A stretch of DNA of 64,000 nucleotides from the NCBI GenBank assembly GCA_000002435.2, contig CM018793.1, one strand, 5' to 3'. The notes under the pieces are model-generated. The model had not been told where the DNA came from. It saw only the letters and a list, made by a program, of their open reading frames with translations, and did no database searches. The DNA is from Giardia intestinalis (Eukaryota). Below, piece after piece: positions 1 to 54,827 of the stretch (its first letter is position 1; each line of letters begins with the position of its first letter). Made by a program: the position numbers and the translations under genes.

Positions 1-3000
1 CGGACCCCATGCGCCGGTGCTCTCCCCCTGGATCGCTCTCGTCCTTCGGTTATGCCCGTGACCCTTAGCTGTCGTGGGGGAGTTACACTCAGAGACAAAT
101 CCTCGGAGGATCTCGAGAGAAGATTGCATCAGTCACTAAAGTTCGTAGAAGGTGTGGATCAACAGAGACAGGCTCATGGGGCACTCTGATCTGGTGGATG
201 CATGGCGTTACTACTGGCCCCCTGTACTAAGTACCATTAGGGTTCTTCATTGCATGACAGAGTGGCAAGTAGAACTCAGAGACGGGTCAGCCCTCCCGTG
301 TCTAGTCAAGGGGAAGCACTGCCCAGACCGTGCTGTCTCCTGAGCTGATGGAGAGGACTCCCATCACCCCTTGAATTACTCTGATGCTACCGCTCTATCG
401 TACCAGAAGCACCCAGGCCTGCGGTACCTTGGTCTGTTGATGTGAGTGACACAGAGCTCTCTGTGTTAGGCTGTCTTCATGAGAGACGAGATCCAGAGGG
501 ACTGTGCTGGTTTGATAGCCAGTGACCAGGCCCATACTCAGCGTGGCCTCGTGTGGGTACCAGGGTAGTTGGGTGCCCATCCACTGATAAGGGAGTCGAA
601 CAACATTTAGCTGCTACTTTCGGGCCAATCTGTGTCTGATCATGGTAGATATGCCGATCGGTGCAAGCGTCCTACCTCTTGATTCATGCATCATGTCACC
701 TGGTAGAGGGCGTGGTATGGTTCTATACACCTCTCTGTGATGCTACTGCGAGAAGTAGATCCTTATTGTGTGGCTACGGAAGCCGAATAGTCTCCGAAGA
801 CACCATATCCTTGTGATCTCCAGCATGGCCCCGCTAGAGCCCAGAGCTCAATGTTCACAGGCCAGTGTAGGAAGTGAAAGTCTAGCAACACACACCTTGA
901 GCGGGAGTGCCACAAACATGCATCGGATACGATCCTGCCAAGAATCCTGTAGGAGGCTGTCCTGGACCTCAGTGGTTGGAGAATCTTCAATAGAAAAATG
1001 GCTACTGTACTCACTCATTCATTGTTGTGAAGGCTTCCTATCGATGTTTATTGATGCGGGCTGGATGACCTCTGTCCACCTGTAGGACTCGACTGCTGTG
1101 CGTTGTAGACGATCGACGAGACTGATATCGCCCTCCATCCGTTGGGTTTATACGAGTGGACGAACTCTGTAGCTGACTGGTTACTATAAGAAAGCCTGCG
1201 CCTATGAGGTCACAGCTTGCATTCGATAGGTAAAAGGCTCTATTGGGCCACAATGTTCCTTGCAGGCTCTGCGGGGCGTGTGGCTACCCCCACGCAACAA
1301 CTGAGATATAGCTCTGCCTAGCTGAGGCTTGCAGGCACGAGCACGGTACAGCTCCTTTCAGTTTATGAAGTCAAACACACTCCAGACGACGGAGATAGAT
1401 AGAGACCCGGATGCATCCAATGCTAGCCTGAGCTGTTCCAATCTTTACTATCCGAGGAATTAACAGGACCACAGAATGGCAGAGGCCTACCTCATGCTCC
1501 TGCTTAGAAGTCTGCGCCTTAGCGAAAGTACGCGTCACGGTCACTGCTGACTACCTGCTGGTGAGTTGTTATCTGCTTTTGAGACCATTAGTTGAGTTGC
1601 TAGTTAAATTGAGAAGCAATGACAGTATTACTCAGACAATGAGCCGAGAAAGCTGATGCTGGTTGTGTACCTCCCACGCTGAGCATACCCACTGTGCAGG
1701 GCAAAGGATCTAATGCCCTAAGTGGTCAGATGAAGCTAAGGCGCTTGTCAGTAACGATATGCATACGGGCTTCAGCCAGAGACTTACGAAGAAACGCTGA
1801 GGAGCCCAAGACCTGCCAGATCTGTATAAGGGACATAACGGATGCCCAGATGATAAATCTATTGACCCTTTTCCTTGGTAGACAGGAGTCTGGCTTGTAG
1901 TGGCCGTCTGCGTGACGTATGCCTTTACAGAACTGATGGAAGTACCCATTGATCTGGAAAGGTCATTAATAAATGGTTGCACGAGATAGGCAAGCAGAGA
2001 ACAGGAGTGGACCACACTATCCTGGCTGATGAGCAATCCAGACTATATAATACGTATACAATCCTTGGCCGAAGTGGAGATGCACCGTAGACTTAGCCAC
2101 GTGAGCTGAGAGCGCTGCTAGCGATCATCTGCCATGAGAAGACGCAGGTGAGAAATCTGTGGACAGCAACCACGCCGACTGGTACCAGCCTGCACAGCAT
2201 GCCTCTACAATAGATCCTCGCCAATATGCGGAGAGAAGGTAAACTTCTTCAACTTCAGACGAGGCAGGCCGCTGATAAATATTACGCTGTTAGGAATATA
2301 TAAAATCAAAAAGCAGCTTTCAACTTATCTGTAGACCCCGCGATCTTTACCACTCGGAGACCAGAGAGGCGCTACAGGCGTCTCTGCTGCAATCCGGGCT
2401 AGTAGCTGGCCTCTCTGACGCCAGTCTTACTTCACTGATTCGCTGGTCACCCTATATTCTCCATGCGGACCGGCTCTCCAGAAACCGTTATGCACGGATA
2501 GTCTTTTGAGTACCCGAATAACATCCTCATCCGCTGAGGTGTGTCACCAAGGACTAGATACCATAAGGTCAACGCAACCAGAGACAGGCCCCCTCGCAGT
2601 CCTGTCCAACACTAGCAGCGAGGATCCAAACGAGTACATAGATAAGTGAGGAGTGTATCATAGCTCAAACCGGTCATCGCACTAAGATCATAACAATCGA
2701 TGTATAGAGTTCTGCTTTTGGCTTATGTGTGGATTTATGTCTCACCTTGAAAGGCAGCAGATCGTTCTATGGCACCTTTCCTAGTGTTCAGTTGTCATTA
2801 CAACTGGTGAAATTGCAACCATAGAGACTGTATGCCTTCCTAGAAGAGTGTCCAGTGCGACTAACTGATATTCTTTATTAACAACAGGCAGGGTAGATAC
2901 TATAGTATCTACACCACCTACTAGGGCGGCGCATGGCCATGCATGCATCAGTAGAGAAGCTGCTGTAATCTCTGCTCAGTCTGTTGGGTAGATGCAGCCC

Positions 3001-5780
3001 CTCATCGCAGCAAACATGGTGGTGGGCAGGTCGCCTGTGTAAGCTAGCTGATCCGTCCATTCTGGTCTAGCTGCGTGCATTTGGAGGCTGTAGTGCACAT
3101 TCATGAAGACAACGCACCGTCTATACATACCATGCCTCGTTCTGTGCTATTCACAGGTCTTAGCGTCTCAGAAGTCAAGGCTAGTGCAGAATGCCCCAAA
3201 CTACCCATCTAGAGGGCCAAAGCTGATACCGCGCATAATACATCATCTTAGGGAGACAATGGCTGCCGTCATTGTTCCGGATTTTTTAGTGTCAGACAAT
3301 CGACCCCACGATGAGTTTACTCTTCGCAGCTTCCGTCTGCATATCGAAGCTGGCTTCTGGCTGCTCAGGCAGCGGATGAGGAGGTTGTACAAAGCGTCAG
3401 TCGCTGGGCTGCCTTCTATCCGCACATGGCCCTGAATGTAGCTCCCACCTATCCGAGACATATGCACTTCTAGAAAGTGATCGGGTAGCATCTAGAGCTG
3501 TTCATGATGGGCATGGTCATTATTCACTTAGCTCTGCCCTTTTCCCAACCATCAGGGGATACCTCCCTAGCTACATGCCCCGAAGTACTACATAATAATA
3601 GCAAAATGGCACTATCACTCTTTAAGCTTCCCTGACCTGTCGGCAGTGTGCCTCCCAACATCCAGTGCGGCACCACCGGATGAATCTATGCGGCTGTGGA
3701 TACCTTACAGCATCGCATTCATCTAGCTCACTGTATACCCTATTCTATCTGGGAGCAACCCAGTCGTGCACAGGAGCCCTTACCTCCCACCCAGGGCCCA
3801 GTCCAATGCTCAGTTGGCTCGGATGCCCTACTGCACCCTGTAAAGCCTCGTTGAGACCATAGATGTGGTGTGCTGCTGGGCGCACCATCCCACGTCGCGC
3901 TGCTATAGAACACTGGTTATCAGGCTGTCCATAGCCCACTACAGGAACTGTAGGACATGACCACACGTAGAGTGCCTGAGTCACTGTGTACGCTGTCCAC
4001 CGACGTGCCCTGGTACCTGCGGATGGAAACGCGTCGCTACGGCCACACGGGTATTTACACGTCCTAAAAGCTCTCATGCCATGCAGTACAGGGTCTGCTA
4101 CTTGGCATGGACCCTTCGATACCGAGACTCTAGAAGAGCATCCCAGGCACCTCCAGTCCTGTTCAGAGAGGAGGCACGCTACGAGAAAACTAGCTATTTC
4201 TCACTATTGTCTGATCTGGCTGGAAGTTCGCATGAAGATTCTCACCACGTGACCAGCACAATCTCCTGTCGTCCAGCCACGGTAACACTTTGGGGTATTA
4301 GAGTGCAGCTCACGTGTTACCTTTATCCCCTCTAGAGAGTCCAGGTTGTGAATGTTCTTGTAGGAGAGAAGCCCGTGACCCGAGGGCAGTTGTTCTTCAT
4401 CAAGGCGTCTTCGACGCACTTGACAATCTGATCCCTGTTAGAGGCCTTCTGGTGGCTGTTGCTCATATATCAACGACCCACCAGTCTGACAAAGCACACC
4501 TCATTTGCTTCACGAGGTGCTCTCGCCTCTTTTGACTGGGGTTCTATAAGAAGGGTCTTTATCATCCCTGAGCATGGCTATGGGGTGGGTGCTGAAAAGG
4601 ATGTCCCTCTCCTCTTCATTCCCATCCCTTCACGCAGTTACGCTCTACACTCGATGTTTGTGTTGCAGTGCACCTGGACGGCTCTCTGACCTCGGTGGGT
4701 TCAGTGCAGAACGAGCATATGCTCGAGTGACTACCATCTGGTGCCACATCAGCACAGAGTGTTTCGTTTTAGCCAGATGTCTCCTACTCGCCATTCTGGT
4801 GCTGAAGCATTTGGGGCAACAGATGATGGGGACTCCCCCAATCCTGGTATCCTCCAGCGTGTGAAACGCCCCCAGGTTCTTAAATGAGGCCTGAATTAGC
4901 TCTATGTCCCGTGTCAAGCTCTCACATGTGCACCTAAGGCTCCTGTTCTTGCTATGGTGTCGGAGCATCTCCCTCGAGAGACCAGCAGCATCCACAGTGT
5001 ATAGGTACGAGTCGGAGTCCATGCGGTCCTCACAAAGCATCAGCAGACGCATGACTCCTATCGGGGCAGTCAGTGACTGGAAGCCCTGCCTCCTCTGGAG
5101 CACAGGATCCGGGGAGAACGGAGCTCCATCACCTGTTCTTGTCTTGTCGATAACGAAGGCCATCTGTTCCAGGTCTTGATTACATAGCTCGCAGTCTACG
5201 TGTCGATTGCTGATCCCTATCGAGGTCTCCCAAGAGCAAGAGCTAGGAGTTGCATCTAAACGCCTCCAGAGGACTTGGAAGGCCTTCTGATCTCTCTCAG
5301 CGTCCTGGGGATGTTGGCGTAGGCGTCATCTGGTGCAGCATGATGTAACACAGCCTGTAAGCTATGGAGGTGTGGAAAGGGAAATGAAATGCCTTATTTG
5401 GCGTATGAGACTCCAGTTGAATGAGCCTGAGGCGGGAGGCTTCCCAGGACGCGGCGTTCGGTGCCTTGCCCGCGGCAAAGCTCTTCAGTCAGGAGGTGCA
5501 GGCGTGTCTTCCATAACTCCTGGCGCCATGGACAATACAATAGAGGCAAGGCGGGCCTCAAAAGGCGAGATAATGCGTTCATGAGCCACTTCCCATTTGA
5601 CGACTAGCCCAGCTGGGGAGAGGGTTCAGTGATAGCGGCAACCGTCTTAGAAGTCCGCCACACGCTTGCTCTTTAGTAGGGAGATCGACTGGGGCGGCGA
5701 GCGCGAGGGCCCTCTTCGCCTGCAGTACCATCATCCCGCCAAGTGTCTGCCGGATCCCGCTTCGAGTCGTTTCTATCGGC

Positions 5781-45384: not shown

Positions 45385-45741
45385 CTATTGTTTACTTTCT
45401 GGCTTATAAATCTCTTCAAAGAGACTCACTAGCGTCTGCGTTATGAGTTTGTTTGTGGACCTCTCTGCCCAAACAAGTTCCTCTATCTTAGAATTGAGAA
45501 TAATCTGGATATTGTACTTGGCAGAAAGCATTTCTATTAGTCTCTCGCATGTACATGGACCATCGTCCAGCAAGGTTACGCCCACCGCTGTTCCGGGTAC
45601 ATCCAAACACGGAACCAAAATAGAGAGGGATCCAAGCGCAAGGGGGTCACTGCTTATAGATAAGACACAAGATTTGGAGTGAGCTATCACAACCACTTTT
45701 ATGATTCCAACATCTGTCTCCAATACTTTCTCTATCAGCAT
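45385..45741 (-). CDS. Small hypothetical protein (118 aa), possibly with a Roadblock/LC7/MglB-like fold
   Basis: An N-terminal hydrophobic beta-like segment 'VGIIKVVVIAHSKSCVLSISS' resembles the roadblock 'VQGIIVVNTEGIPIKST' segment. The match is weak, so the family assignment is tentative. Confidence 0.3.
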   Translation of the reverse strand: MLIEKVLETDVGIIKVVVIAHSKSCVLSISSDPLALGSLSILVPCLDVPGTAVGVTLLDDGPCTCERLIEMLSAKYNIQIILNSKIEELVWAERSTNKLITQTLVSLFEEIYKPESKQ

Positions 45742-47968
45742 TTTAAGATGATTATAGAATGATCCGGGAACCCCTCCTGCAACGAAAGCTTAGCCATCCT
45801 ATTTATCCAGGGGGCATTAGAAATCAAGAGATACATTTAACTGATCATTGCGTGTATTGAACAACTCATACTAATTTCTTTGTCCCCAGTAGCTGACCCT
45901 AATCATCCCAGTAGAGCCCCACATCAGGTATGGATCTTGCGTAGTGCTGAGCCATATCCCCTATGTCAATAGATGCTGCTTCGGTGGCTCCAATTTGAAG
46001 GAGGGAGGCCCTTGTCACTGTATAGATTTGTGTCAAGTGAAAATTATCGTGGGCTTCTTGGAAGACCCGACGGCTCGCTATATTCTGCCATCTCTATGCT
46101 TGCCATGGCTACTGGAAATACCGATGCATGTGTGCAACTCATAAGAGTGAGCTCTGCTTGATTATTTGCTCAAACTGTCCAACCCATGATAATAGGACTG
46201 CTACCAGAGGAGACCATGAACGAAACCCTAGTACTCACGAGGGCACTCTCAGATGAAGTGGTTTGTATGCGCTCTTTAGCCCTCGGAAGCTCAGTGCACA
46301 TGGTTACTCATCCTTTGACACCAGACTCGCCCACAAGACGCACTGGCCACACTATAACACCCTTGGTGGTGAGCCCAGATAAGGGTGCGTGCGCTGATAG
46401 TATTGTATGTCAAAAGACCTTCCTAGTAGCAATGTGCTGGTCACGGTCAAGAAGACATTACCATTTTGATGCATCGAGGGTTGATCGATTCGTTAAGACA
46501 CTGTCGGTATTCTACTCGTATAATCGGGACCCATCTCATCTACAAAGGTTCTACTTGTGTGCACGCTCACCCGGAAACCAGAATCGAGACCTGGCAGGCG
46601 TCACTCGCCCTGCAGCGATTTGGTACGACAGCAAGGGTGGACCTCGGATTGACGGGGGATGCTTCCCGGCGAGTCCCAGGTGCACTGCAGGTGGCGATCT
46701 CAACGTGGATGAGTGCCCAGTCGGTGAAGTCATGGCTCACAGGGAGGCGCCTGGACTACCCACAAGGATTGGGGAGATCCAAGACTGCAGTGTCCGTTGG
46801 TAAGACACACAGTAGGAACGCCTTGTGAGATAGACCAGAAGTCCTCCGCCCAGTCGTGGCTAGTACCTGCAGCTAGTAGCCCCGTGGGCTCGTCCCGGAC
46901 GCTCTTGGTCAAACGGATAGCCGATGCGGTCGTGTCAGAGGTCAGTCTCCGCCTCCACATGGCAGAACAGTGGGAACAGTCGTCTATAGGCAGGGACCTT
47001 CTCTTGAACATAATGCAGCTAACACTGTGCCACAGTACCCATGACTGACTTGGTGGGCTACACTATGGCAATACTTCGCAGAGCCCCAGTTCGCAAGTCA
47101 TAAGGCGATTGCCAATTCAGACCGAGACATCCTTTGTGTACGCTGGGCCTATCTGCAGTATAACGAGCAGCGTATCTGTTTGACCAAGAGGCTGCCGGCG
47201 TGGATATGCACTGCCGTATGCCCAGGCCTATAGTTGAATGACAGACCGTTCAGGTGGGGGATCAGCGATTGCCTTGACGTGCAAGAAGAGCCTCCATGCG
47301 ACATCGTTCCACAACGGTATGCGTAGGATCTGCGGCGAATGGCACCACCACCAAAGCGGACGAGGCGCTGTGCTATCGAGAAAGGAGGCTCATATCTTCT
47401 TATGACCAAAGAGCCTAGCAACAACATTTACACAGCAATGCATACTATCGCAATGGACTTTCCTTGTGGGCAGTGTTAAAATGTTCATGTGCCATGTCGT
47501 GAGGCCATGGCGTATTTTGCATCTCCTGCGCCAACGTCATCGCTGCCTATTAGTGCAGAACCTGGCTATCTTGGAAGGCCTCCTCAAGTTCGTCTATGCC
47601 TTTCTCGAAGAAGGTCCTTGGTAGTGGAGCTCGCTTTATGAGTGCTGTCTACCTCCTAGCAGAGCAAATTGACGGATGATGCACATGCGGGCTATACACT
47701 TTTCCGAAGCTTGTAGGACACGGTGTTATGGCGGCTTTAACGGTACACAAGCCACGCCCGCCTGCAACAGATGGCCTCGATAGGATGCTCTTGAGTAGGG
47801 CACCAGTCAACTAGTCTAGTCCATGGGCACCGCTGAAAAGCACCAGTGTCTTCTTGTTCTACACTGCGGTGTGCTCACAGCGATACGCTGAAGGATGCGT
47901 GCGGCCCGGTGGAGGCGGCCTCTACTGCTATCTGATTGCCCGTTAGTGTGAGCGTGATTCGACGGGCA

Positions 47969-49246
47969 ATGTTGTACTTGGCAGGTTTAGCATTCGCTTA
48001 CTTGGCGCTTGCCGATCCAAAATCGTGCACCAACTCTCAAAATTGTGCATCTGGAGATAACTGTCTAGATGTCAATATGAATGGTTCTCCTACAGAGGTT
48101 TGCACAAAATGCGAGCCAAACAACGTCCCGATCGACGGGGCGTGCAAGCCGGCCGCAGACAACACGAACAGCTGCGTAACCTCGGATAGCGGGGCCGGCG
48201 GGGTTTGCGCGTCGTGCCAGGGGAGCACCTACCTCTACAAGGGCGGGTGCTACGCCGCGTGCCCTCAGGGAACACCAAACTCTGAGACTAACACATGCGA
48301 TGGAGTCCCCGCCCCTGATTGCAATCTCGCCAACTGCGAGGTGTGCTCGGAGGACAAGCAGAAGTGCACAAAGTGCCAAAGTAACTACTTCCTCACTCCA
48401 GAGAAGAACGCTTGCTTGGCGTCTTGTCCGGCCGGGTCGTACGCGGTTGGGCAAACGTGCGCGCCCTGCGACCCCTCCTGTGCGGAGTGCAGCGGGGCCG
48501 GCGCTTCCAAGTGCACGGCCTGTCCCGCCGGGAAGATGCTGAGGTACGCCGACGAGAGCAAGCTTAATGAGGGCGGCCAGTGCGTGGAGCAATGCGTGGA
48601 GGGCCCGGAGTGCGAGACGTGCGGCCTAACAATTGGAGGTACCAAGTACTGCTCGAAGTGCAAGGGGAACAACGTGCCGCTCAATGGCGTCTGCACAAGC
48701 AATGCGGCCAGGACTCGGTTCTGCACCACTGTCGCTAACGGTGCTTGCACGGTCTGCGCCGCCGGATACTTCATCCAGGAGGGCGGATGCTACAAGACTG
48801 ACAGGCTCCCCGGGAAAAGCATCTGCACAACGCCCACTGGGGATGGAAAATGCCAAACGTGTGCGAATGGCTTGACAGCTGTCTCGAACATGTGTCCATT
48901 ATGCGACTCCACTTGTGCGACATGCACCGTGGCCAATCAACCCGATAAGTGCAGCACGTGTCCACCTGGCCGTTACTTGGACGCCAGTAAAGCATGCAAA
49001 CTGTGTACAGAGACAAGCGGTAGCATCCAGGGCGTCGCTAACTGCGCGAGCTGCGCTCCTCCAACTGGTAATAGTGGTTCTGTCATCTGCTACGTCAAGA
49101 CGGATGGCACTGACAACGGCGGAAGCACGAATAAGAGCGGCCTCAGCACAGGCGCTATAGCGGGCATCTCCGTCACGGCGGTTGTCGTCGTGGCTGGCCT
49201 TGTGAGCTTCCTCTGCTGGTGGTTCCTCTGTAGGGGCAAGGCGTGA
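47969..49246 (+). CDS. VSP: Variant-specific surface protein (VSP)
   Basis: The signal peptide is MLYLAGLAFAYLALA. There are about 28 CxxC motifs and the GGCY motif. There is a single C-terminal TM (AIAGISVTAVVVVAGLVSFLCWWFL) followed by the invariant cytoplasmic tail CRGKA and a stop. The ORF track starts at a TTG at 47936, and the first ATG is at 47969. Confidence 0.95.
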   Translation: MLYLAGLAFAYLALADPKSCTNSQNCASGDNCLDVNMNGSPTEVCTKCEPNNVPIDGACKPAADNTNSCVTSDSGAGGVCASCQGSTYLYKGGCYAACPQGTPNSETNTCDGVPAPDCNLANCEVCSEDKQKCTKCQSNYFLTPEKNACLASCPAGSYAVGQTCAPCDPSCAECSGAGASKCTACPAGKMLRYADESKLNEGGQCVEQCVEGPECETCGLTIGGTKYCSKCKGNNVPLNGVCTSNAARTRFCTTVANGACTVCAAGYFIQEGGCYKTDRLPGKSICTTPTGDGKCQTCANGLTAVSNMCPLCDSTCATCTVANQPDKCSTCPPGRYLDASKACKLCTETSGSIQGVANCASCAPPTGNSGSVICYVKTDGTDNGGSTNKSGLSTGAIAGISVTAVVVVAGLVSFLCWWFLCRGKA

Positions 49247-49260
49247 CTTAGGTAGTAAAC
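49247..49260 (+). promoter_or_regulatory. VSP extended polyadenylation signal (ACTTAGGT + AGTAAAC)
   Basis: The TGA stop is followed 1 nt later by 'cttaggtagtaaac'. This gives ACTYAGRT AGTRAAY, the conserved 3' element of Giardia VSP genes, and includes the general AGTRAAY poly(A) signal. Confidence 0.8.
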
Positions 49261-49906
49261 GTGCCCACATACCACAGTATACATCATAAATGGTGTCCAG
49301 GGCTGCCTCTGGTACACTGACGTGCCTCCTGGCGAGAGTAGCGGGGTCCCGCTCCCGAGCTACGGGCTGTGCTGGAACTGGGGGCACTATTTGTAGTGGT
49401 TGGAAAGTAAGCCCTGCAGGGCCGACTTTAGTCGTGAAAGCATCGTATACATCAGCAGTGGCTGAACACTCAGATTTTTTGGTATTACGGCAAAGTCATC
49501 AATGCCTGAAAAATCTACGAGGTTACTTCTATCGACATCTATGCTTCTCTATCGTTCCTCCTAGAAAAGAGCACTCTTGAGAATCAGCAAAACCATATTC
49601 TAAACTAATGAGATTGTTTCTTATTCAGCTTAGTTGATGAGCCAGCTTTATAAACCTGAAAGTATAATGTAGTTTGTGAGTAAATACCAATGTTGGGCGT
49701 TTGCATTGTGGATTCTACAAGTTTAGCATTAAGATCACTGCCTTATATATTCTTGCTGTTAAAGATTCTCAATTAAAGCTTTAACATTCTGTCATTGCCG
49801 CCGTCAGTATTCGCGTCTATCTCCATAACGATATCGACGAAGACCTGGCCCACAACATACCATTTGGCAGCTATTGATCATGATCTAAAAATTCAAATCT
49901 CTCTTC

Positions 49907-52276
49907 ATGTCTCTCTCTGATTGGTTCCAAGGGATTATTATGAACGATTTCGATACGGTAAACAAGCTACTGGCTCAGTACAAATGTTCTGTAGACGCGC
50001 AAGGAGATACGGGACTCATGGTAGCTACGCAAGCAGGCCTTTTGGGAATGGTGCGCTTGCTAGCACCCTTTGAGAGCGGATCTCGCTCATCTTCCGGCTG
50101 TACAGCTCTTATGATAGCATGCATGTCGAATATGCCTGAAATAGTCGAGGTACTCCTTCCCCTAGAAAAGGACTTTAGGCTCTCTGATGGTCGGGACGCA
50201 CTAATGCTGGCCGCTAGTAGCAATTCTGGCGATGTACTAGACATACTCATGCCGAACTTCAGTTTATGCCGCGACAATAATAGCCTATCTGCCCTAGACT
50301 ATGCGGGATATGAGGGTCATCTTTTCATAGTCATGAAGCTCGTGCACTACTTTCGCCCATCCTCCGCTGATCTATCAATTGCACGGGACCTAGCATCTGA
50401 AGCAGGTAGAAGCTCTGTGGTTGCTTATCTAGACTCTCTAGACGCCAATAGCAGTTCCAACCCTATCCAGGATGCATCCAGTGGAGGATTTACTAACGAG
50501 TCAGACATATTAGTCGACAAGAAAGATGGTATGGTCGTTACCACTTCGACCAACGGAGAAGACCGCATTTCTCTTCCACATCCAGATGATCCTTTTACTT
50601 CGGATATGACTACCATCAACCCAACTGCAGAGAAGCACATTGCACTTTTGGAATCAGAAAACAAAGCGCTTCGTTTAAAACTGGAGGCCATAACAGCGAG
50701 CACGGACGAAGAGCGATTGCTGGCTTTTAACAAAATGGAAAACGAGATAGCTTTTTATATGGGCGAGGTTGAAATGCTACAGAATAGCCTCAAGGAGAAA
50801 GATTTAGCCGATTCTGCGAGTATTGAATCTGAAAGCATAGAGTCTTTACAACAGCTCCTTATTGGCGCTAAAGAGGAGCTAGATAAAGCAAGGGAAGATC
50901 TCAATACCAGCTTGGAATCACAGAGTGAGTTGACTGGTCTTTTATTGATTAAAGAGGAAGAAGGAAAGAAGCTAGCGACAGAGATAGATTCTCTAAAGCG
51001 TGAATTGAAGGCCTCGAGGGAAGAGCTTGAAAAGACGGAACTAGAGTTACAAAATACTAAGCAACGATTAAGGGTGTGCGAAGGTGAGGCCGCGATAGGA
51101 AAGCAGTTTGATAACACAATGGTCTTGACAAAATCACTCTATGGCCACGACTTGCGTGAGCAGTTGGCGGTACCTTTACGCAATGTAATACCCACAGACA
51201 TAGATCTCCGATTTATCAAAGGCACCGCGGCGCAATTCAAGGCAAATCCATCAGAGTTAAGGCATCTTATATCTAACTTCAACATTCTCAAGAAGGCCTA
51301 CGTTTCTTTGTTGAGAGACTATGATAAGGTAGAACCGTCTCCCCAACGGTCCGCAACAGGGCTTTGTAAAGGGCATGGATCCTTACGCAATAAAAGTGCT
51401 AGGGCAAGGGACTCTATGGATACACTCATCTCGTCCATAAATACTTCCATAAGGCGGTCAAGTTCCAGAACGGCTCCGTTATCGCGGTCATCGTCGTCAC
51501 AAGTTATACAGATGGCATCTACTCAAGGCGCTGATATTGAACGGGCTCAGTCTAGCTTGGCTGATAACCGCCAAAGGAGCATTGTTTCAGGAACACAAAT
51601 AGGAAGATCAGTTACTGCTAGAAATCGAGCCACAGAGGTTTCGTTAGTGACAGAGGAGATGATGGCTGAATTGTCTAATCAGGAGAACACGCCACTCATG
51701 AGGGCGTTTGTAGAGGGAAATCTGGATGGCGTATTAAATATGCTATCACACGTCGGTAAGCAGCGCAGCGATGGAACAACCGCCCTAATGCTCGCGGCCC
51801 TATTTAATCGCATTAGCGCAATCAAGTATGTTGTCAAAAAGGAGGCACGAATGAAGCGTGTTGATGGAGCCACTGCTCTACATATTGCCCTTCAAAAGGG
51901 GTATTATACCATTGCGGATCTTTTAACAAAATATGAAGGAATTGACGTCAGCGAATATAGTACAGAGGGCAACCGAAAAACTGAGCTCATGTGTGCCGCA
52001 GAAGAAAATGACCTGGTGAAGTTGTGGTGTCTGCGCCCGTTACAAGAACGCTTACAAGATCAGAATGGGAAGACAGCCTTAATGTATGCTCTTGAAAAGG
52101 GGCACCTACACTGTGTGTACCTTTTATTATCCAGTGAAGCAAAGATTCGAGATAGTCAAGGAAACAATATAGTGTCTTATTGCTCCAAGATGAGTCATAC
52201 TTTGCCCGAATCTCTTCGCCAAGAACTTACGTTTATGGCAACGCGCTACTGCAATGAGCAGTATTACATGGAGTAG
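49907..52276 (+). CDS. Ankyrin-repeat / coiled-coil / ankyrin-repeat protein (789 aa, 'protein 21.1'-type)
   Basis: There are ankyrin repeats at the N-terminus (QGDTGLMVATQAGLLGMVRLL, SGCTALMIACMSNMPEIVEVLL) and at the C-terminus (DGTTALMLAALFNRISAIKYV, NGKTALMYALEKGHLHCVYLLL). A central coiled-coil of about 200 aa separates them. Confidence 0.8.
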   Translation: MSLSDWFQGIIMNDFDTVNKLLAQYKCSVDAQGDTGLMVATQAGLLGMVRLLAPFESGSRSSSGCTALMIACMSNMPEIVEVLLPLEKDFRLSDGRDALMLAASSNSGDVLDILMPNFSLCRDNNSLSALDYAGYEGHLFIVMKLVHYFRPSSADLSIARDLASEAGRSSVVAYLDSLDANSSSNPIQDASSGGFTNESDILVDKKDGMVVTTSTNGEDRISLPHPDDPFTSDMTTINPTAEKHIALLESENKALRLKLEAITASTDEERLLAFNKMENEIAFYMGEVEMLQNSLKEKDLADSASIESESIESLQQLLIGAKEELDKAREDLNTSLESQSELTGLLLIKEEEGKKLATEIDSLKRELKASREELEKTELELQNTKQRLRVCEGEAAIGKQFDNTMVLTKSLYGHDLREQLAVPLRNVIPTDIDLRFIKGTAAQFKANPSELRHLISNFNILKKAYVSLLRDYDKVEPSPQRSATGLCKGHGSLRNKSARARDSMDTLISSINTSIRRSSSRTAPLSRSSSSQVIQMASTQGADIERAQSSLADNRQRSIVSGTQIGRSVTARNRATEVSLVTEEMMAELSNQENTPLMRAFVEGNLDGVLNMLSHVGKQRSDGTTALMLAALFNRISAIKYVVKKEARMKRVDGATALHIALQKGYYTIADLLTKYEGIDVSEYSTEGNRKTELMCAAEENDLVKLWCLRPLQERLQDQNGKTALMYALEKGHLHCVYLLLSSEAKIRDSQGNNIVSYCSKMSHTLPESLRQELTFMATRYCNEQYYME

Positions 52277-53624: not shown

Positions 53625-54827
53625 CTACCTCCTGCTTGGTTTTTGTTTTCATTTATGATAATCGCATATTTACAAATGTCACATATGAATTTGAGTAGTG
53701 CAACTTATAACATATAAGGGGAAAGAGACTTACTGTGGTAATTTTCTCGTCTATGGTAAATTTCAAGAGTTTTGAGATTGTATTTAATAAAGAATAGACA
53801 ACAAGGATGTAGTCAAATGGTGGCCACAGGGAAACTTAGATGCTATGTTGCTGGGCCCACCTGCAGACGTGGTCCAGAGGCCTTATGAGTGATCCTCGCT
53901 CAATTCCTGGCCATGTCTGAAGATGAAGGCTGGTTGTAGATACCATACTAGGGGTTCTTCTCTAGTAGTGCATCCAAAGCCAGGTGCTTTCCCTAGTCAT
54001 TCTGTGCAGCGTCCGCGTCGCTCAGTCTAGGATTCAGCTTACTCATTGGCATATGTAGCTTGTAAGTTGTATCTCTCCTTGGTCTATCCCCCCGATGAGG
54101 GAGGGCCCCAGCAGTCGATGACCCTGGACCGACGCCTCGGTGGACCGACGCATCACCCCAAGTGTGCTGTGCAGATGGACCAGCCCACACATCACTGAGC
54201 CAGACGCACTGCACAGGGTGAGCGTCGACACGGTCTCGTGCTGGATGACGGACCACCTGCAAGAGCGCACTGCGATCCATGAGCAGAGGGCCGGGCCTCT
54301 TCTCCGACACAACGCATGGGAGTACTCCATCGGCATCTACGCACGCGTACCACAACCTCAAGATAGAGGGACACGGGGAGCGCACCCTCCGATCATACTC
54401 GGGACTGATGACTCGCTTCATGAGGAGACGAAGAGGCACCCCGAGGAACGGGGTAGACACCCGGGGTCATAGCGTATCCCATCTTCGTCATGGAGTACCA
54501 GGGTCCCGGGCCACGTGGAGGCCAGATCGCCGCAACAGACGCAAGGCCCTGAATAGCAGGTGCCCACCAGTGCCAGACGATAGTTGACCCCGATGGGCCA
54601 GAGGAAGGGAGGAACCCTAGAGGTAACGTGAGGAGCAGCGGCTTCCGGGGGACGGGGCACAGAGTCTTCTCCTGTCGGGATCGAGGGCACCTGACTCTCG
54701 GATTTCTGATCCCAGCCGTGTATGGGCGAAAGGCTTGCCTAAGGTAGCAGTGGCTTGCACGGGAGATCACTCAGGTAGTAGGTGACAACCCCACCCTGGT
54801 GAAACGAAGAGTAAATTAGGTGTACAT

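What the first reader, a model, noticed from the sequence alone, without database searches (positions are those of the whole stretch)
45742..47968. 2.2-kb ORF-free, partly GC-rich divergent spacer immediately upstream of the VSP gene
Other intergenic spacers in the window are tens to hundreds of bp. This 2.2-kb interval lies between the start of a minus-strand gene (45741) and the VSP ATG (47969). It has no ORF over 205 aa, and its longest ORFs are compositionally non-protein-like (R/S/C/P-rich). The stretch 46500-47300 is about 58% GC, like VSP coding DNA. It may be a decayed VSP or Cys-rich gene remnant, or a regulatory or antisense-transcribed region relevant to VSP silencing.
Basis: seen in the sequence. 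Interest (0 to 1): 0.5.

Follow-up and report, generated by a model that had tools for sequence, protein, structure and literature searches.

The report
Long non-coding spacer upstream of VSP
The 2.2-kb gap upstream of this Giardia surface-antigen (VSP) gene is real but ordinary: it is neutrally evolving non-coding DNA of the long, GC-rich kind already known to flank VSP genes, and its VSP-side third moves between chromosomal sites together with the gene.

Summary
The window is Giardia intestinalis WB (assemblage A1). The 2,227-bp interval 45742-47968 exists as described. Its only sizeable ORF (46186-46803, annotated hypothetical GL50803_003847) is not a gene: it carries a stop in A2 isolates and stops plus frameshifts in assemblage E, its substitutions fall evenly on the three codon positions, and it has no homologues. 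I found no trace of a VSP or Cys-rich gene, retroelement, Pfam domain, Rfam family, tRNA or stable RNA fold.

Comparison with A2 (DH) and E (P15) splits the spacer into layers:
- 45742-45900: mildly conserved 5' flank of the 118-aa gene.
- 45901-46576: shared by A and E, diverging at about the neutral rate.
- 46577-47014: assemblage-A-only, GC-rich filler.
- 47015-47968: a 5' flank that travels with the VSP. It is homologous to the upstream DNA of related VSPs at other loci.

A sharp A1/A2 exchange junction lies at about 47507, and the other junction lies at the VSP poly(A) signal (about 49250).

Published genome-wide surveys already report long (mean 2.1 kb), GC-rich, gene-poor VSP flanks containing dubious hypothetical ORFs. 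A decayed VSP is not supported. A regulatory role is untested, and the near-neutral divergence argues against a sequence-specific one.

The parts
45385..45741 (-). Real 118-aa gene (GL50803_0019364) that bounds the spacer on the left
   Evidence: Exact match to KAE8305216.1. Orthologues at 68-75% aa identity occur in other assemblages. WB-P15 substitutions by codon position are 5/3/16.
45742..45900 (.). Promoter-proximal 5' flank of the 118-aa gene, the only mildly conserved part of the spacer
   Evidence: A-E divergence is 14.5% (23/159), against 27.7% at four-fold sites of neighbouring genes.
45901..46576 (.). Ancestral non-coding segment shared by assemblages A and E, evolving at about the neutral rate
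   Evidence: WB-P15 divergence is 23.8% plus indels, against 27.7% neutral. WB-DH divergence is 3.4%, against 2.45% neutral. Homology to P15 contig ACVC01000236 stops at 46576.
46186..46803 (+). Spurious ORF annotated as hypothetical protein GL50803_003847 (205 aa)
   Evidence: In-frame stop in A2 isolates and multiple stops and frameshifts in P15. Substitutions by codon position are 32/27/24 (WB-P15) and 7/10/13 (WB-DH). Codon score is about 0.03. Exhaustive HMMER search against 1.84 billion representatives found only its own cluster plus repeat-inflated noise.
46577..47014 (.). Assemblage-A-specific GC-rich (58.7%) filler of unknown origin
   Evidence: 96-100% identical between WB and DH. 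No counterpart in either P15 locus, L001 or L013.
47015..47968 (+). VSP-linked 5' flank that accompanies this VSP lineage at different chromosomal sites
   Evidence: WB 47015-49260 aligns with P15 L013 5114-7419 (VSP next to an RT gene) at 72.8%. WB 47360-49261 aligns with DH L012 5392-7518 (VSP between Maf1 and an ABC transporter) at about 90%. Flank divergence is 6.1% and 30.5%, against 11.2% and 33.8% at four-fold sites of the attached VSP coding sequences.
47360..47506 (.). Homology tract shared by WB, the positional DH locus and the DH paralogous locus; the left junction of the A1/A2 cassette exchange lies at its right end (about 47507)
   Evidence: WB-DH positional identity is 95-98% up to about 47506, then falls to 55-70% within a few bases. 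WB-L012 identity is 93% in this tract. Logan A2 contigs L004 and L005 terminate at WB-equivalent 47418.
47969..49246 (+). VSP gene (XP_001708090.1, 425 aa, CRGKA tail, initiator context CAATGTT)
   Evidence: The positional VSP of DH (P0064) is only 38% identical. The closest relative (P0027, 88%) sits at another DH locus.
49246..49262 (+). Extended VSP polyadenylation signal, which is the right junction of the exchanged cassette
   Evidence: ACTTAGGTAGTAAACGT has 1 mismatch to the published consensus and is the only match in the window. Homology to L012 and L013 ends at 49260-49261. WB-DH positional identity returns to 95-100% from about 49253.

Best explanation
The interval is a composite, non-coding, essentially unconstrained intergenic region at a VSP recombination and synteny-break site of Giardia intestinalis WB. 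It has four layers. (1) About 160 bp is the 5' flank of the neighbouring 118-aa gene. (2) About 680 bp is old intergenic DNA shared with assemblage E and drifting at about the neutral rate. (3) About 440 bp is assemblage-A-only, GC-rich filler. (4) About 950 bp is a 5' flank that belongs to the VSP 'cassette' and is duplicated or relocated together with the gene. Shown: between sub-assemblages A1 and A2 the cassette has been exchanged. The junctions lie at about 47507, inside a homology tract (47360-47506) that is also present at a paralogous VSP locus, and at the conserved VSP 3' end and poly(A) signal (about 49250). Inferred: the exchange occurred by ectopic homologous recombination or gene conversion that used those two conserved edges. 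The long spacer persists because nothing selects against it, and recombination in GC-rich VSP neighbourhoods keeps adding and removing DNA. The annotated 205-aa ORF is a chance ORF in GC-rich DNA.
For: Identity of the window and genes. Non-coding nature. Neutral rates: four-fold-site divergence is 2.45% (A1-A2) and 27.7% (A-E), against spacer divergence of 3.55% (45742-47480, A1-A2) and 23.8% (45901-46576, A-E). The transition/transversion ratio is the same in the spacer and at four-fold sites, about 6-9:1. Breakpoints: a sharp drop from about 97% to about 65% identity at about 47507, with identity returning at about 49253. Cassette at other loci: L012 (DH, Maf1/ABC locus) is 91-100% identical to WB from 47507 through the VSP, and L013 (P15, next to an RT gene) is homologous from 47015. 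An independent ENA assembly (L003) shows the same A2 arrangement as DH. In another assemblage a VSP tail lies 430 nt upstream of the 118-aa orthologue in the opposite orientation, and assemblies of further assemblages break 115-617 nt upstream of that gene. This marks the site as a recurrent VSP hot spot. Literature: VSP intergenic regions have median 1280 and mean 2131 nt against 79 and 392.5 genome-wide; the 2-kb upstream GC averages 53.9%; neighbouring hypothetical genes are probably not genes; flanks are partially duplicated (bioRxiv 10.1101/2022.03.07.483299). An extended upstream non-coding region is described as typical, and flanks of duplicated pairs are identical up to an abrupt divergence point 139-729 bp from the coding region (PMC2996952). 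VSP regions are GC-rich and sit at synteny breaks (PMC3091692).
Against: No expression, small-RNA or chromatin data could be consulted, so a sequence-independent role (spacing, chromatin domain) is not excluded. The 47360-47968 flank diverges somewhat more slowly than the four-fold sites of the attached VSP (6.1% against 11.2%), which could reflect weak constraint or merely the mosaic, fast-evolving coding sequence. The origin of 46577-47014 is unexplained. Whole Giardia genomes could not be searched at the DNA level, so other copies of spacer segments may exist.
Confidence: 0.8

Rival explanations
1. The spacer, or its GC-rich core 46500-47300, is the eroded remnant of a VSP or other Cys-rich gene.
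For: GC of 56-60% resembles VSP coding DNA. The site hosts VSPs in both orientations in different assemblages. The literature reports many VSP pseudogenes and some intergenic regions with Cys-rich similarity.
Against: No similarity by blastn or tblastx, by Pfam in six frames, or by unfiltered phmmer with a working positive control. CXXC motifs are at chance. No relic poly(A) signal or CRGKA tail. No residual coding signal in any frame. High GC is a general property of VSP neighbourhoods, non-coding parts included.
Confidence: 0.07
2. The VSP-proximal flank (47015-47968), or the whole spacer, is a cis-acting control region for VSP expression or silencing. It could act as an epigenetic domain, a source of antisense or small RNA, or an insulator against the neighbouring promoter.
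For: The flank stays attached to the VSP through relocation in A2 and E. It diverges slightly more slowly than VSP four-fold sites. The literature suggests that upstream intergenic areas may control vsp expression and links switching to histone acetylation and RNAi (PMC2996952). A 100-nt native VSP upstream region gives restricted expression in transfection.
Against: Divergence is close to neutral with frequent indels, and no block is conserved above background across WB, DH and P15. A related P15 VSP (L014) lacks the flank entirely. There is no excess RNA structure: mean z is +0.4 to +0.6 and the minimum is -1.1. There is no Rfam hit. Co-transfer is expected for any DNA lying inside a recombination tract.
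Confidence: 0.15
3. GL50803_003847 (46186-46803) is a genuine lineage-specific protein-coding gene, so the true spacer is shorter.
For: It is annotated in the reference genome, and a 195-aa version recurs in 145 assembled contigs of assemblage A1-type samples.
Against: There is a premature stop in A2 and stops plus frameshifts in E. Substitutions show no third-position excess. Codon score is near zero. No homologue exists among 1.84 billion representatives. No paper in the searched library mentions it. The literature notes that such VSP-adjacent hypothetical genes lack transcription and translation.
Confidence: 0.02
4. The interval encodes a structured non-coding RNA or contains a mobile-element relic.
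For: Other ORF-poor stretches of the same window do contain retroelement relics. A 17/18 inverted repeat lies at 46902-46919 and 47173-47190.
Against: No Rfam match at E<=1 and no tRNA. Folding z-scores are not below background. No RT or endonuclease similarity within the spacer by Pfam or tblastn, although the same query hits elsewhere in the window. No terminal or tandem repeats.
Confidence: 0.03

Closest known systems
Gene-poor, GC-rich extended intergenic regions flanking Giardia VSP genes (Adam et al. 2010, PMC2996952; Jerlstrom-Hultqvist et al. 2010, PMC3091692; Rodriguez-Walker et al., bioRxiv 10.1101/2022.03.07.483299)
   Same: The length (2,227 bp) is close to the published mean for VSP intergenic regions (2,131 nt). 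GC of 52-56% compares with the published 53.9% for the 2 kb upstream of VSPs. It contains a dubious hypothetical ORF. It lies at a break of synteny between assemblages. The VSP has the initiator context, the CRGKA tail and the extended poly(A) signal.
   Different: Nothing essential differs. This report adds locus-specific detail: four evolutionary layers, near-neutral rates, and exact exchange junctions.
Co-duplicated flanks of VSP gene pairs with an abrupt divergence point 139-729 bp from the coding region (Adam et al. 2010, Table 5)
   Same: About 460-610 bp of 5' flank shares the history of the VSP. The change in identity is abrupt (about 47507 for A1 against A2; 47360 against the DH paralogous locus). 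The 3' edge lies just after the stop codon.
   Different: Here the related copies are at non-allelic loci in different isolates (A1 against A2 against E), not inverted identical pairs within one genome. In the A-E comparison the shared flank extends to about 950 bp.
70-bp-repeat and 3'-end homology-mediated VSG cassette conversion in Trypanosoma brucei (own knowledge)
   Same: An antigen gene is exchanged as a cassette, bounded by an upstream non-coding homology block and a conserved 3' end.
   Different: There are no tandem 70-bp-type repeats in this spacer. Giardia VSP switching does not require DNA rearrangement (PMC2996952). The exchange seen here is an evolutionary event between isolates, not a switching mechanism.

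Membership tests
VSP-flanking extended intergenic region of Giardia | Directly adjoins a bona fide VSP gene (PF03302, CRGKA tail, PyAATGTT initiator context, extended poly(A) signal) | tested here: met
   The VSP is an exact match to XP_001708090.1 with PF03302. CAATGTT lies at 47967-47973. The protein ends in CRGKA. The poly(A) signal is at 49246-49262.
VSP-flanking extended intergenic region of Giardia | Length far above the genome-typical intergenic distance and within the VSP range (published median 1280, mean 2131 nt, against 79 and 392.5) | tested here: met
   The interval is 2,227 bp. Other gaps between ORFs in the window are mostly 11-375 bp.
VSP-flanking extended intergenic region of Giardia | GC content raised above the genome and coding average (published 53.9% for the 2 kb upstream of VSPs, against 45.2%) | tested here: met
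   51.7% overall, 55.9% for 46500-47300 and 58.7% for 46577-47014, against 47.9% for the whole window.
VSP-flanking extended intergenic region of Giardia | No functional gene inside; any annotated hypothetical ORF lacks the signatures of coding sequence | tested here: met
   Expression could not be tested.
VSP-flanking extended intergenic region of Giardia | Located at a break of synteny or a site of rearrangement between isolates | tested here: met
   A-E homology ends at 46576. The A1 and A2 VSPs at this site are 38% identical. The closest relatives sit at other loci.
VSP or Cys-rich pseudogene (pVSP/pCRMP) | BLASTx- or HMM-detectable similarity to VSP, HCMP or CRMP proteins | tested here: not met
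   tblastx, Pfam in six frames and phmmer --max (best E 0.07, with a working positive control). A profile of the whole family was not available.
VSP or Cys-rich pseudogene (pVSP/pCRMP) | Several CXXC (or CXC, CXXXC) motifs in one translated frame, together with at least 4% Cys | tested here: not met
   Only CXXC was counted: 0-2 per 742-aa frame, against a shuffle mean of 0.7 (95th percentile of the best frame is 3), and 16 in the 425-aa VSP. Cys is nominally 3.0-4.6% per frame (22-34 codons; shuffle mean 23, 95th percentile of the best frame 34), so the motif criterion fails while the Cys criterion is uninformative.
VSP or Cys-rich pseudogene (pVSP/pCRMP) | Relic of the conserved 3' end (transmembrane segment, CRGKA tail, ACTTAGGTAGTRAAYGC signal) | tested here: not met
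   With up to 3 mismatches, the only match in the window is the real signal at 49246. No blastn hit to 49100-49262.
Protein-coding gene (GL50803_003847) | Reading frame preserved in close relatives, with an excess of third-position substitutions | tested here: not met
   Stop in A2; stops and frameshifts in E; substitutions by codon position 32/27/24, against 1/5/25 and 5/3/16 in the neighbouring genes.
Non-LTR retrotransposon relic (GilM/GilT/GilD type) | Similarity to reverse transcriptase or endonuclease ORFs | tested here: not met
   No RVT or other Pfam hit. tblastn with the P15 RT-containing and neighbouring ORFs hits 4303-5079 and 54137-54454 but nothing in 45742-47968.
Structured non-coding RNA | Match to a curated RNA family, or folding energy below shuffled controls | tested here: not met
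   No Rfam hit at E<=1, no tRNA, and 200-nt window z-scores between -1.1 and +2.0.

The most novel reading that the evidence does not exclude
The roughly 0.6-0.95-kb 5' flank (47015-47968) is not just passenger DNA. It would be a functional cassette edge: a non-coding homology block, paired with the conserved VSP 3' end and poly(A) signal, that lets whole VSP genes be swapped between dispersed chromosomal sites. It might also carry the epigenetic on/off state with the gene. That would make VSP repertoire evolution in Giardia mechanistically analogous to the flank-guided VSG conversion of trypanosomes.
Probability: 0.15. Interest if true: 0.5.

Novelty: already known. Interest (0 to 1): 0.15.

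Why it matters
The result mainly matters as a negative. The striking gap in an otherwise compact genome is a textbook-type VSP neighbourhood, not a hidden gene, a hidden RNA or a decayed VSP. It also supports removing GL50803_003847 from the gene set. The one useful by-product is a base-pair-resolution example of a VSP cassette exchange between sub-assemblages A1 and A2. The left junction lies in a shared upstream tract at about 47507 and the right junction at the poly(A) signal. This example could serve as a test case for how VSP repertoires diversify by ectopic recombination.

Tried and rejected
1. A single chimeric query, made of the six reading frames joined with X for stops, was sent to the search for homologous proteins. 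It returned nothing, not even the exact 205-aa ORF cluster known to be in the collection, so the control failed and the result is uninformative.

2. A RIP-like or deaminase hypermutation idea arose for 47507-47860, where WB and DH differ by 104 transitions and 18 transversions with a GC-to-AT skew. I rejected it because four-fold sites of ordinary genes show the same or a stronger transition bias (265:35 and 36:2). The tract is simply older, that is paralogous.

WB's own Maf1/ABC locus could therefore not be examined.

4. The P15 VSP L014 shares only coding and 3' sequence with the WB cassette, not the upstream flank, so the flank is not family-wide.

5. The weak hits of the 205-aa ORF to P0023-P0026 are tandem-repeat proteins with repeat-inflated scores.

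6. Direct, inverted and tandem repeat searches in the spacer gave only short matches. Most are of chance-level length, and the exception is the 17/18 inverted repeat listed among the items noticed in passing.

7. Searches for the gene identifiers in the paper library found nothing.
Full report
IDENTITY OF THE WINDOW. Exact-sequence look-ups place the window in Giardia intestinalis WB clone C6 (assemblage A1), on a 4.02-Mb chromosome record. The 118-aa minus-strand ORF at 45385-45741 is GL50803_0019364. The 425-aa ORF from the ATG at 47969 is a VSP (XP_001708090.1). The ORF at 49907-52276 is 'Ankyrin repeat protein 1'. The 205-aa ORF at 46186-46803, inside the spacer, is deposited as hypothetical protein GL50803_003847.

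THE OBSERVATION. The interval 45742-47968 is 2,227 bp. The longest ORF in any frame is the 205-aa one (213 aa stop to stop). GC is 51.7% overall and 55.9% for 46500-47300, with 300-nt windows peaking at 60%. For comparison, the whole window is 47.9% and the VSP is 58.5%. It is the largest gap between ORFs of at least 150 aa; the others are mostly 11-375 bp. Window 1-5780 is a longer ORF-poor stretch, and 53625-54827 is another. The interval is also not empty in the reference annotation.

IS ANYTHING ENCODED?
- A codon-usage log-odds profile trained on 20 genes of the window gives +0.1 to +0.23 for real genes in the correct frame. It gives at most 0.04 for every frame across the spacer.
- Six-frame translations match no Pfam family at E<=10.
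- There is no Rfam match at E<=1, no tRNA and no tandem repeat.
- Folding z-scores of 200-nt windows on both strands range from -1.1 to +2.0, no lower than in the flanking genes.
- The annotated ORF fails every coding test. In two A2 sequences it carries an in-frame stop. In P15 it carries several stops and frameshifts. Substitutions fall 32/27/24 on the three codon positions (WB against P15), against 1/5/25 and 5/3/16 in the two neighbouring genes.
- An exhaustive HMMER search of 1.84 billion representative proteins returns only the ORF's own cluster, plus four tandem-repeat proteins whose scores are inflated by repetition.

IS IT A DECAYED VSP? The evidence says no.
- blastn (word size 7) and tblastx of the spacer against the rest of the window, the adjacent VSP included, give only chance-level hits.
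- phmmer without filters, using the WB and DH VSPs as queries against the six frames of the WB and P15 spacers, gives nothing better than E=0.07. The same run finds a 36-46-aa VSP tail in a control locus (L011) at E=1e-9 to 1e-11.
- CXXC motifs number 0-2 per frame, which is chance level, against 16 in the VSP.
- The 17-nt extended VSP poly(A) signal described by Jerlstrom-Hultqvist et al. (PMC3091692) occurs once in the window, at the real VSP 3' end (49246-49262), and nowhere in the spacer even with 3 mismatches allowed.

COMPARATIVE ANATOMY. I retrieved orthologous loci through the 118-aa protein. They are DH (A2, L002, complete locus), an independent ENA assembly (L003), two Logan A2-type contigs (L004, L005), P15 (assemblage E, L001, whose contig ends 1,931 nt upstream of the gene), and short contigs of other assemblages (L006-L011).

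The neutral yardsticks come from four-fold degenerate sites of the neighbouring genes: 2.45% divergence for A1-A2 and 27.7% for A-E. The transition/transversion ratios at those sites are 36:2 and 265:35. Against these yardsticks the spacer behaves as follows.
- 45742-45900 diverges 14.5% between A and E, about half the neutral rate. This fits the promoter and 5' end of the 118-aa gene.
- 45901-46576 diverges 23.8% (A-E) and 3.4% (A1-A2), which is neutral.
- Homology to P15 stops at 46576. P15 continues with 1.1 kb of unrelated 61%-GC DNA that also lacks VSP similarity.
- 46577-47480 diverges 4.0% between A1 and A2.
- At about 47507 the WB-DH identity collapses within a few bases from about 97% to about 65%. 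It stays low through most of the VSP; the DH positional VSP, P0064, is 38% identical in protein.
- Identity returns to 95-100% at about 49253, immediately after the stop codon and poly(A) signal.

THE VSP CASSETTE AND ITS FLANK. A protein search with the VSP found its closest relatives, and their loci were fetched.
- The best relative (P0027, 88%) lies in DH at a different locus, between Maf1 and an ABC transporter (L012). WB 47360-49261 aligns with it at about 90%, and at 91-100% in 60-nt windows from 47507 onward.
- A P15 relative (P0030, 72%) lies next to a reverse-transcriptase ORF (L013). It is collinear with WB from 47015 to 49260 at 72.8%.
- A further P15 relative (L014) shares only coding and 3' sequence.

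The right-hand 610-950 bp of the spacer is therefore a 5' flank that accompanies this VSP lineage wherever it sits. The tract 47360-47506 is present, at 85-98% identity, in WB, in the positional DH locus and in the paralogous DH locus. The A1/A2 junction lies at its right edge. This is the geometry expected for ectopic homologous recombination or gene conversion using the upstream flank and the conserved VSP 3' end as the two homology arms; that mechanism is an inference.

Two A2 short-read contigs end at WB-equivalent 47418, inside this tract, which is present twice in A2 genomes. That is consistent with a repeat-induced assembly break.

The positional DH flank and N-terminal coding region resemble the P15 copy more (77-90%) than WB does (56-76%). 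This suggests, tentatively, that A2 kept the older cassette and A1 acquired the L012-type one.

The flank itself is not noticeably constrained. It diverges 6.1% (WB against L012) and 30.5% (WB against L013), against 11.2% and 33.8% at four-fold sites of the attached coding sequences. No 60-nt block stands out across the four sequences.

THE SITE IS A RECURRENT VSP HOT SPOT. In another assemblage (L011) a VSP tail lies 430 nt upstream of the 118-aa orthologue. It ends '...FLCR*' without CRGKA and has the opposite orientation to the WB VSP. In assemblies of further assemblages the contigs break 115-617 nt upstream of the gene.

COMPARISON WITH THE LITERATURE.
- Adam et al. 2010 (PMC2996952) describe 'an extended noncoding region upstream' as a typical feature of vsp genes. 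They also report that the flanks of duplicated pairs are identical up to an abrupt divergence point 139-729 bp from the coding region.
- Jerlstrom-Hultqvist et al. 2010 (PMC3091692) report that VSP regions have higher GC and coincide with synteny breaks.
- Rodriguez-Walker et al. (bioRxiv 10.1101/2022.03.07.483299) give VSP intergenic lengths of median 1,280 and mean 2,131 nt, against 79 and 392.5 genome-wide. They give 53.9% GC for the 2 kb upstream of VSPs. They note that neighbouring hypothetical genes without transcription or translation are probably not genes, and that intergenic sequence is partially duplicated along with VSPs.
- Ankarklev et al. 2015 (PMC4570179) report that AI and AII VSP repertoires have largely diverged independently and that about 80% of heterozygous positions are transitions.

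The present interval fits all of these descriptions.

VERDICT. It is non-coding and evolves at close to the neutral rate, apart from about 160 bp next to the 118-aa gene that diverge at about half that rate. It is neither a decayed VSP nor a hidden gene or RNA. The only part with a specific relationship to the VSP is the proximal 0.6-0.95 kb, which is co-inherited with the gene and contains one junction of an A1/A2 cassette exchange. Whether that flank has a cis-acting role in VSP control cannot be decided from sequence. The near-neutral divergence makes a sequence-specific role unlikely.

Noticed in passing
window 1-5780: This is an ORF-poor stretch longer than the reported one (largest ORF 172 aa, GC 51.8%). 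tblastn with a P15 reverse-transcriptase-containing ORF hits 5079-4303 on the minus strand in four frame-shifted pieces (40-58% identity), so it holds a dead non-LTR retroelement relic. Window 36-370 is 68% identical to DNA about 300 nt downstream of the DH VSP in L012, which hints at another VSP neighbourhood at or beyond the window start.
   Followed up: partly
window 53625-54827: This is a second ORF-poor spacer (1.2 kb, GC 53.6%). Segment 54137-54454 (+) matches (32% aa) the 290-aa P15 ORF that lies beside the RT ORF in L013. Segments 53849-54006 and 54343-54611 match DNA flanking the P15 VSP in L013 (70% and 68%, the latter inverted). It looks like retroelement- or VSP-neighbourhood debris shared between loci.
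   Followed up: partly
L011 1-553: In an isolate whose 118-aa orthologue is 72% identical to WB's, a VSP C-terminal tail lies 430 nt upstream of that gene, on the same strand as the gene. It has the transmembrane segment and then '...FLCR*', lacking CRGKA. It is probably a truncated VSP pseudogene at the same hot spot.
   Followed up: partly
L002 6734-7822 (DH positional VSP): The A2 VSP at this locus contains a tandem duplication of about 84 aa (about 252 nt). WB 48211-48340 matches it at three registers. The DH paralogue L012 is 75 aa longer than the WB VSP through a 267-nt indel.
   Followed up: no
window 46902-46919 and 47173-47190: An 18-nt inverted repeat with 17/18 complementary bases and 253 nt between the arms, in the GC-rich core. 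By my rough estimate only about 0.01 such pairs are expected by chance in 5 kb. There is no folding-energy signal, and only the right arm lies in the part shared with P15.
   Followed up: partly
window 48899-49387 (-): A 162-aa ORF antisense to the VSP 3' end scores as high as real genes on the codon-usage profile (0.16-0.18). It is probably an artefact of GC-rich VSP antisense frames. It was not examined further.
   Followed up: no
L004 and L005 (ends), L006-L010 (ends): Short-read assemblies of many isolates break inside or just upstream of this spacer. A2-type contigs end at WB-equivalent 47418, and contigs of other assemblages end 115-617 nt upstream of the 118-aa gene. This is consistent with repeated VSP-associated sequence at the site.
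   Followed up: partly
window 47936-47968: The mechanical ORF list starts the VSP at a TTG (47936, 436 aa). The annotated and biologically sensible start is the ATG at 47969, in the initiator context CAATGTT (425 aa).
   Followed up: yes
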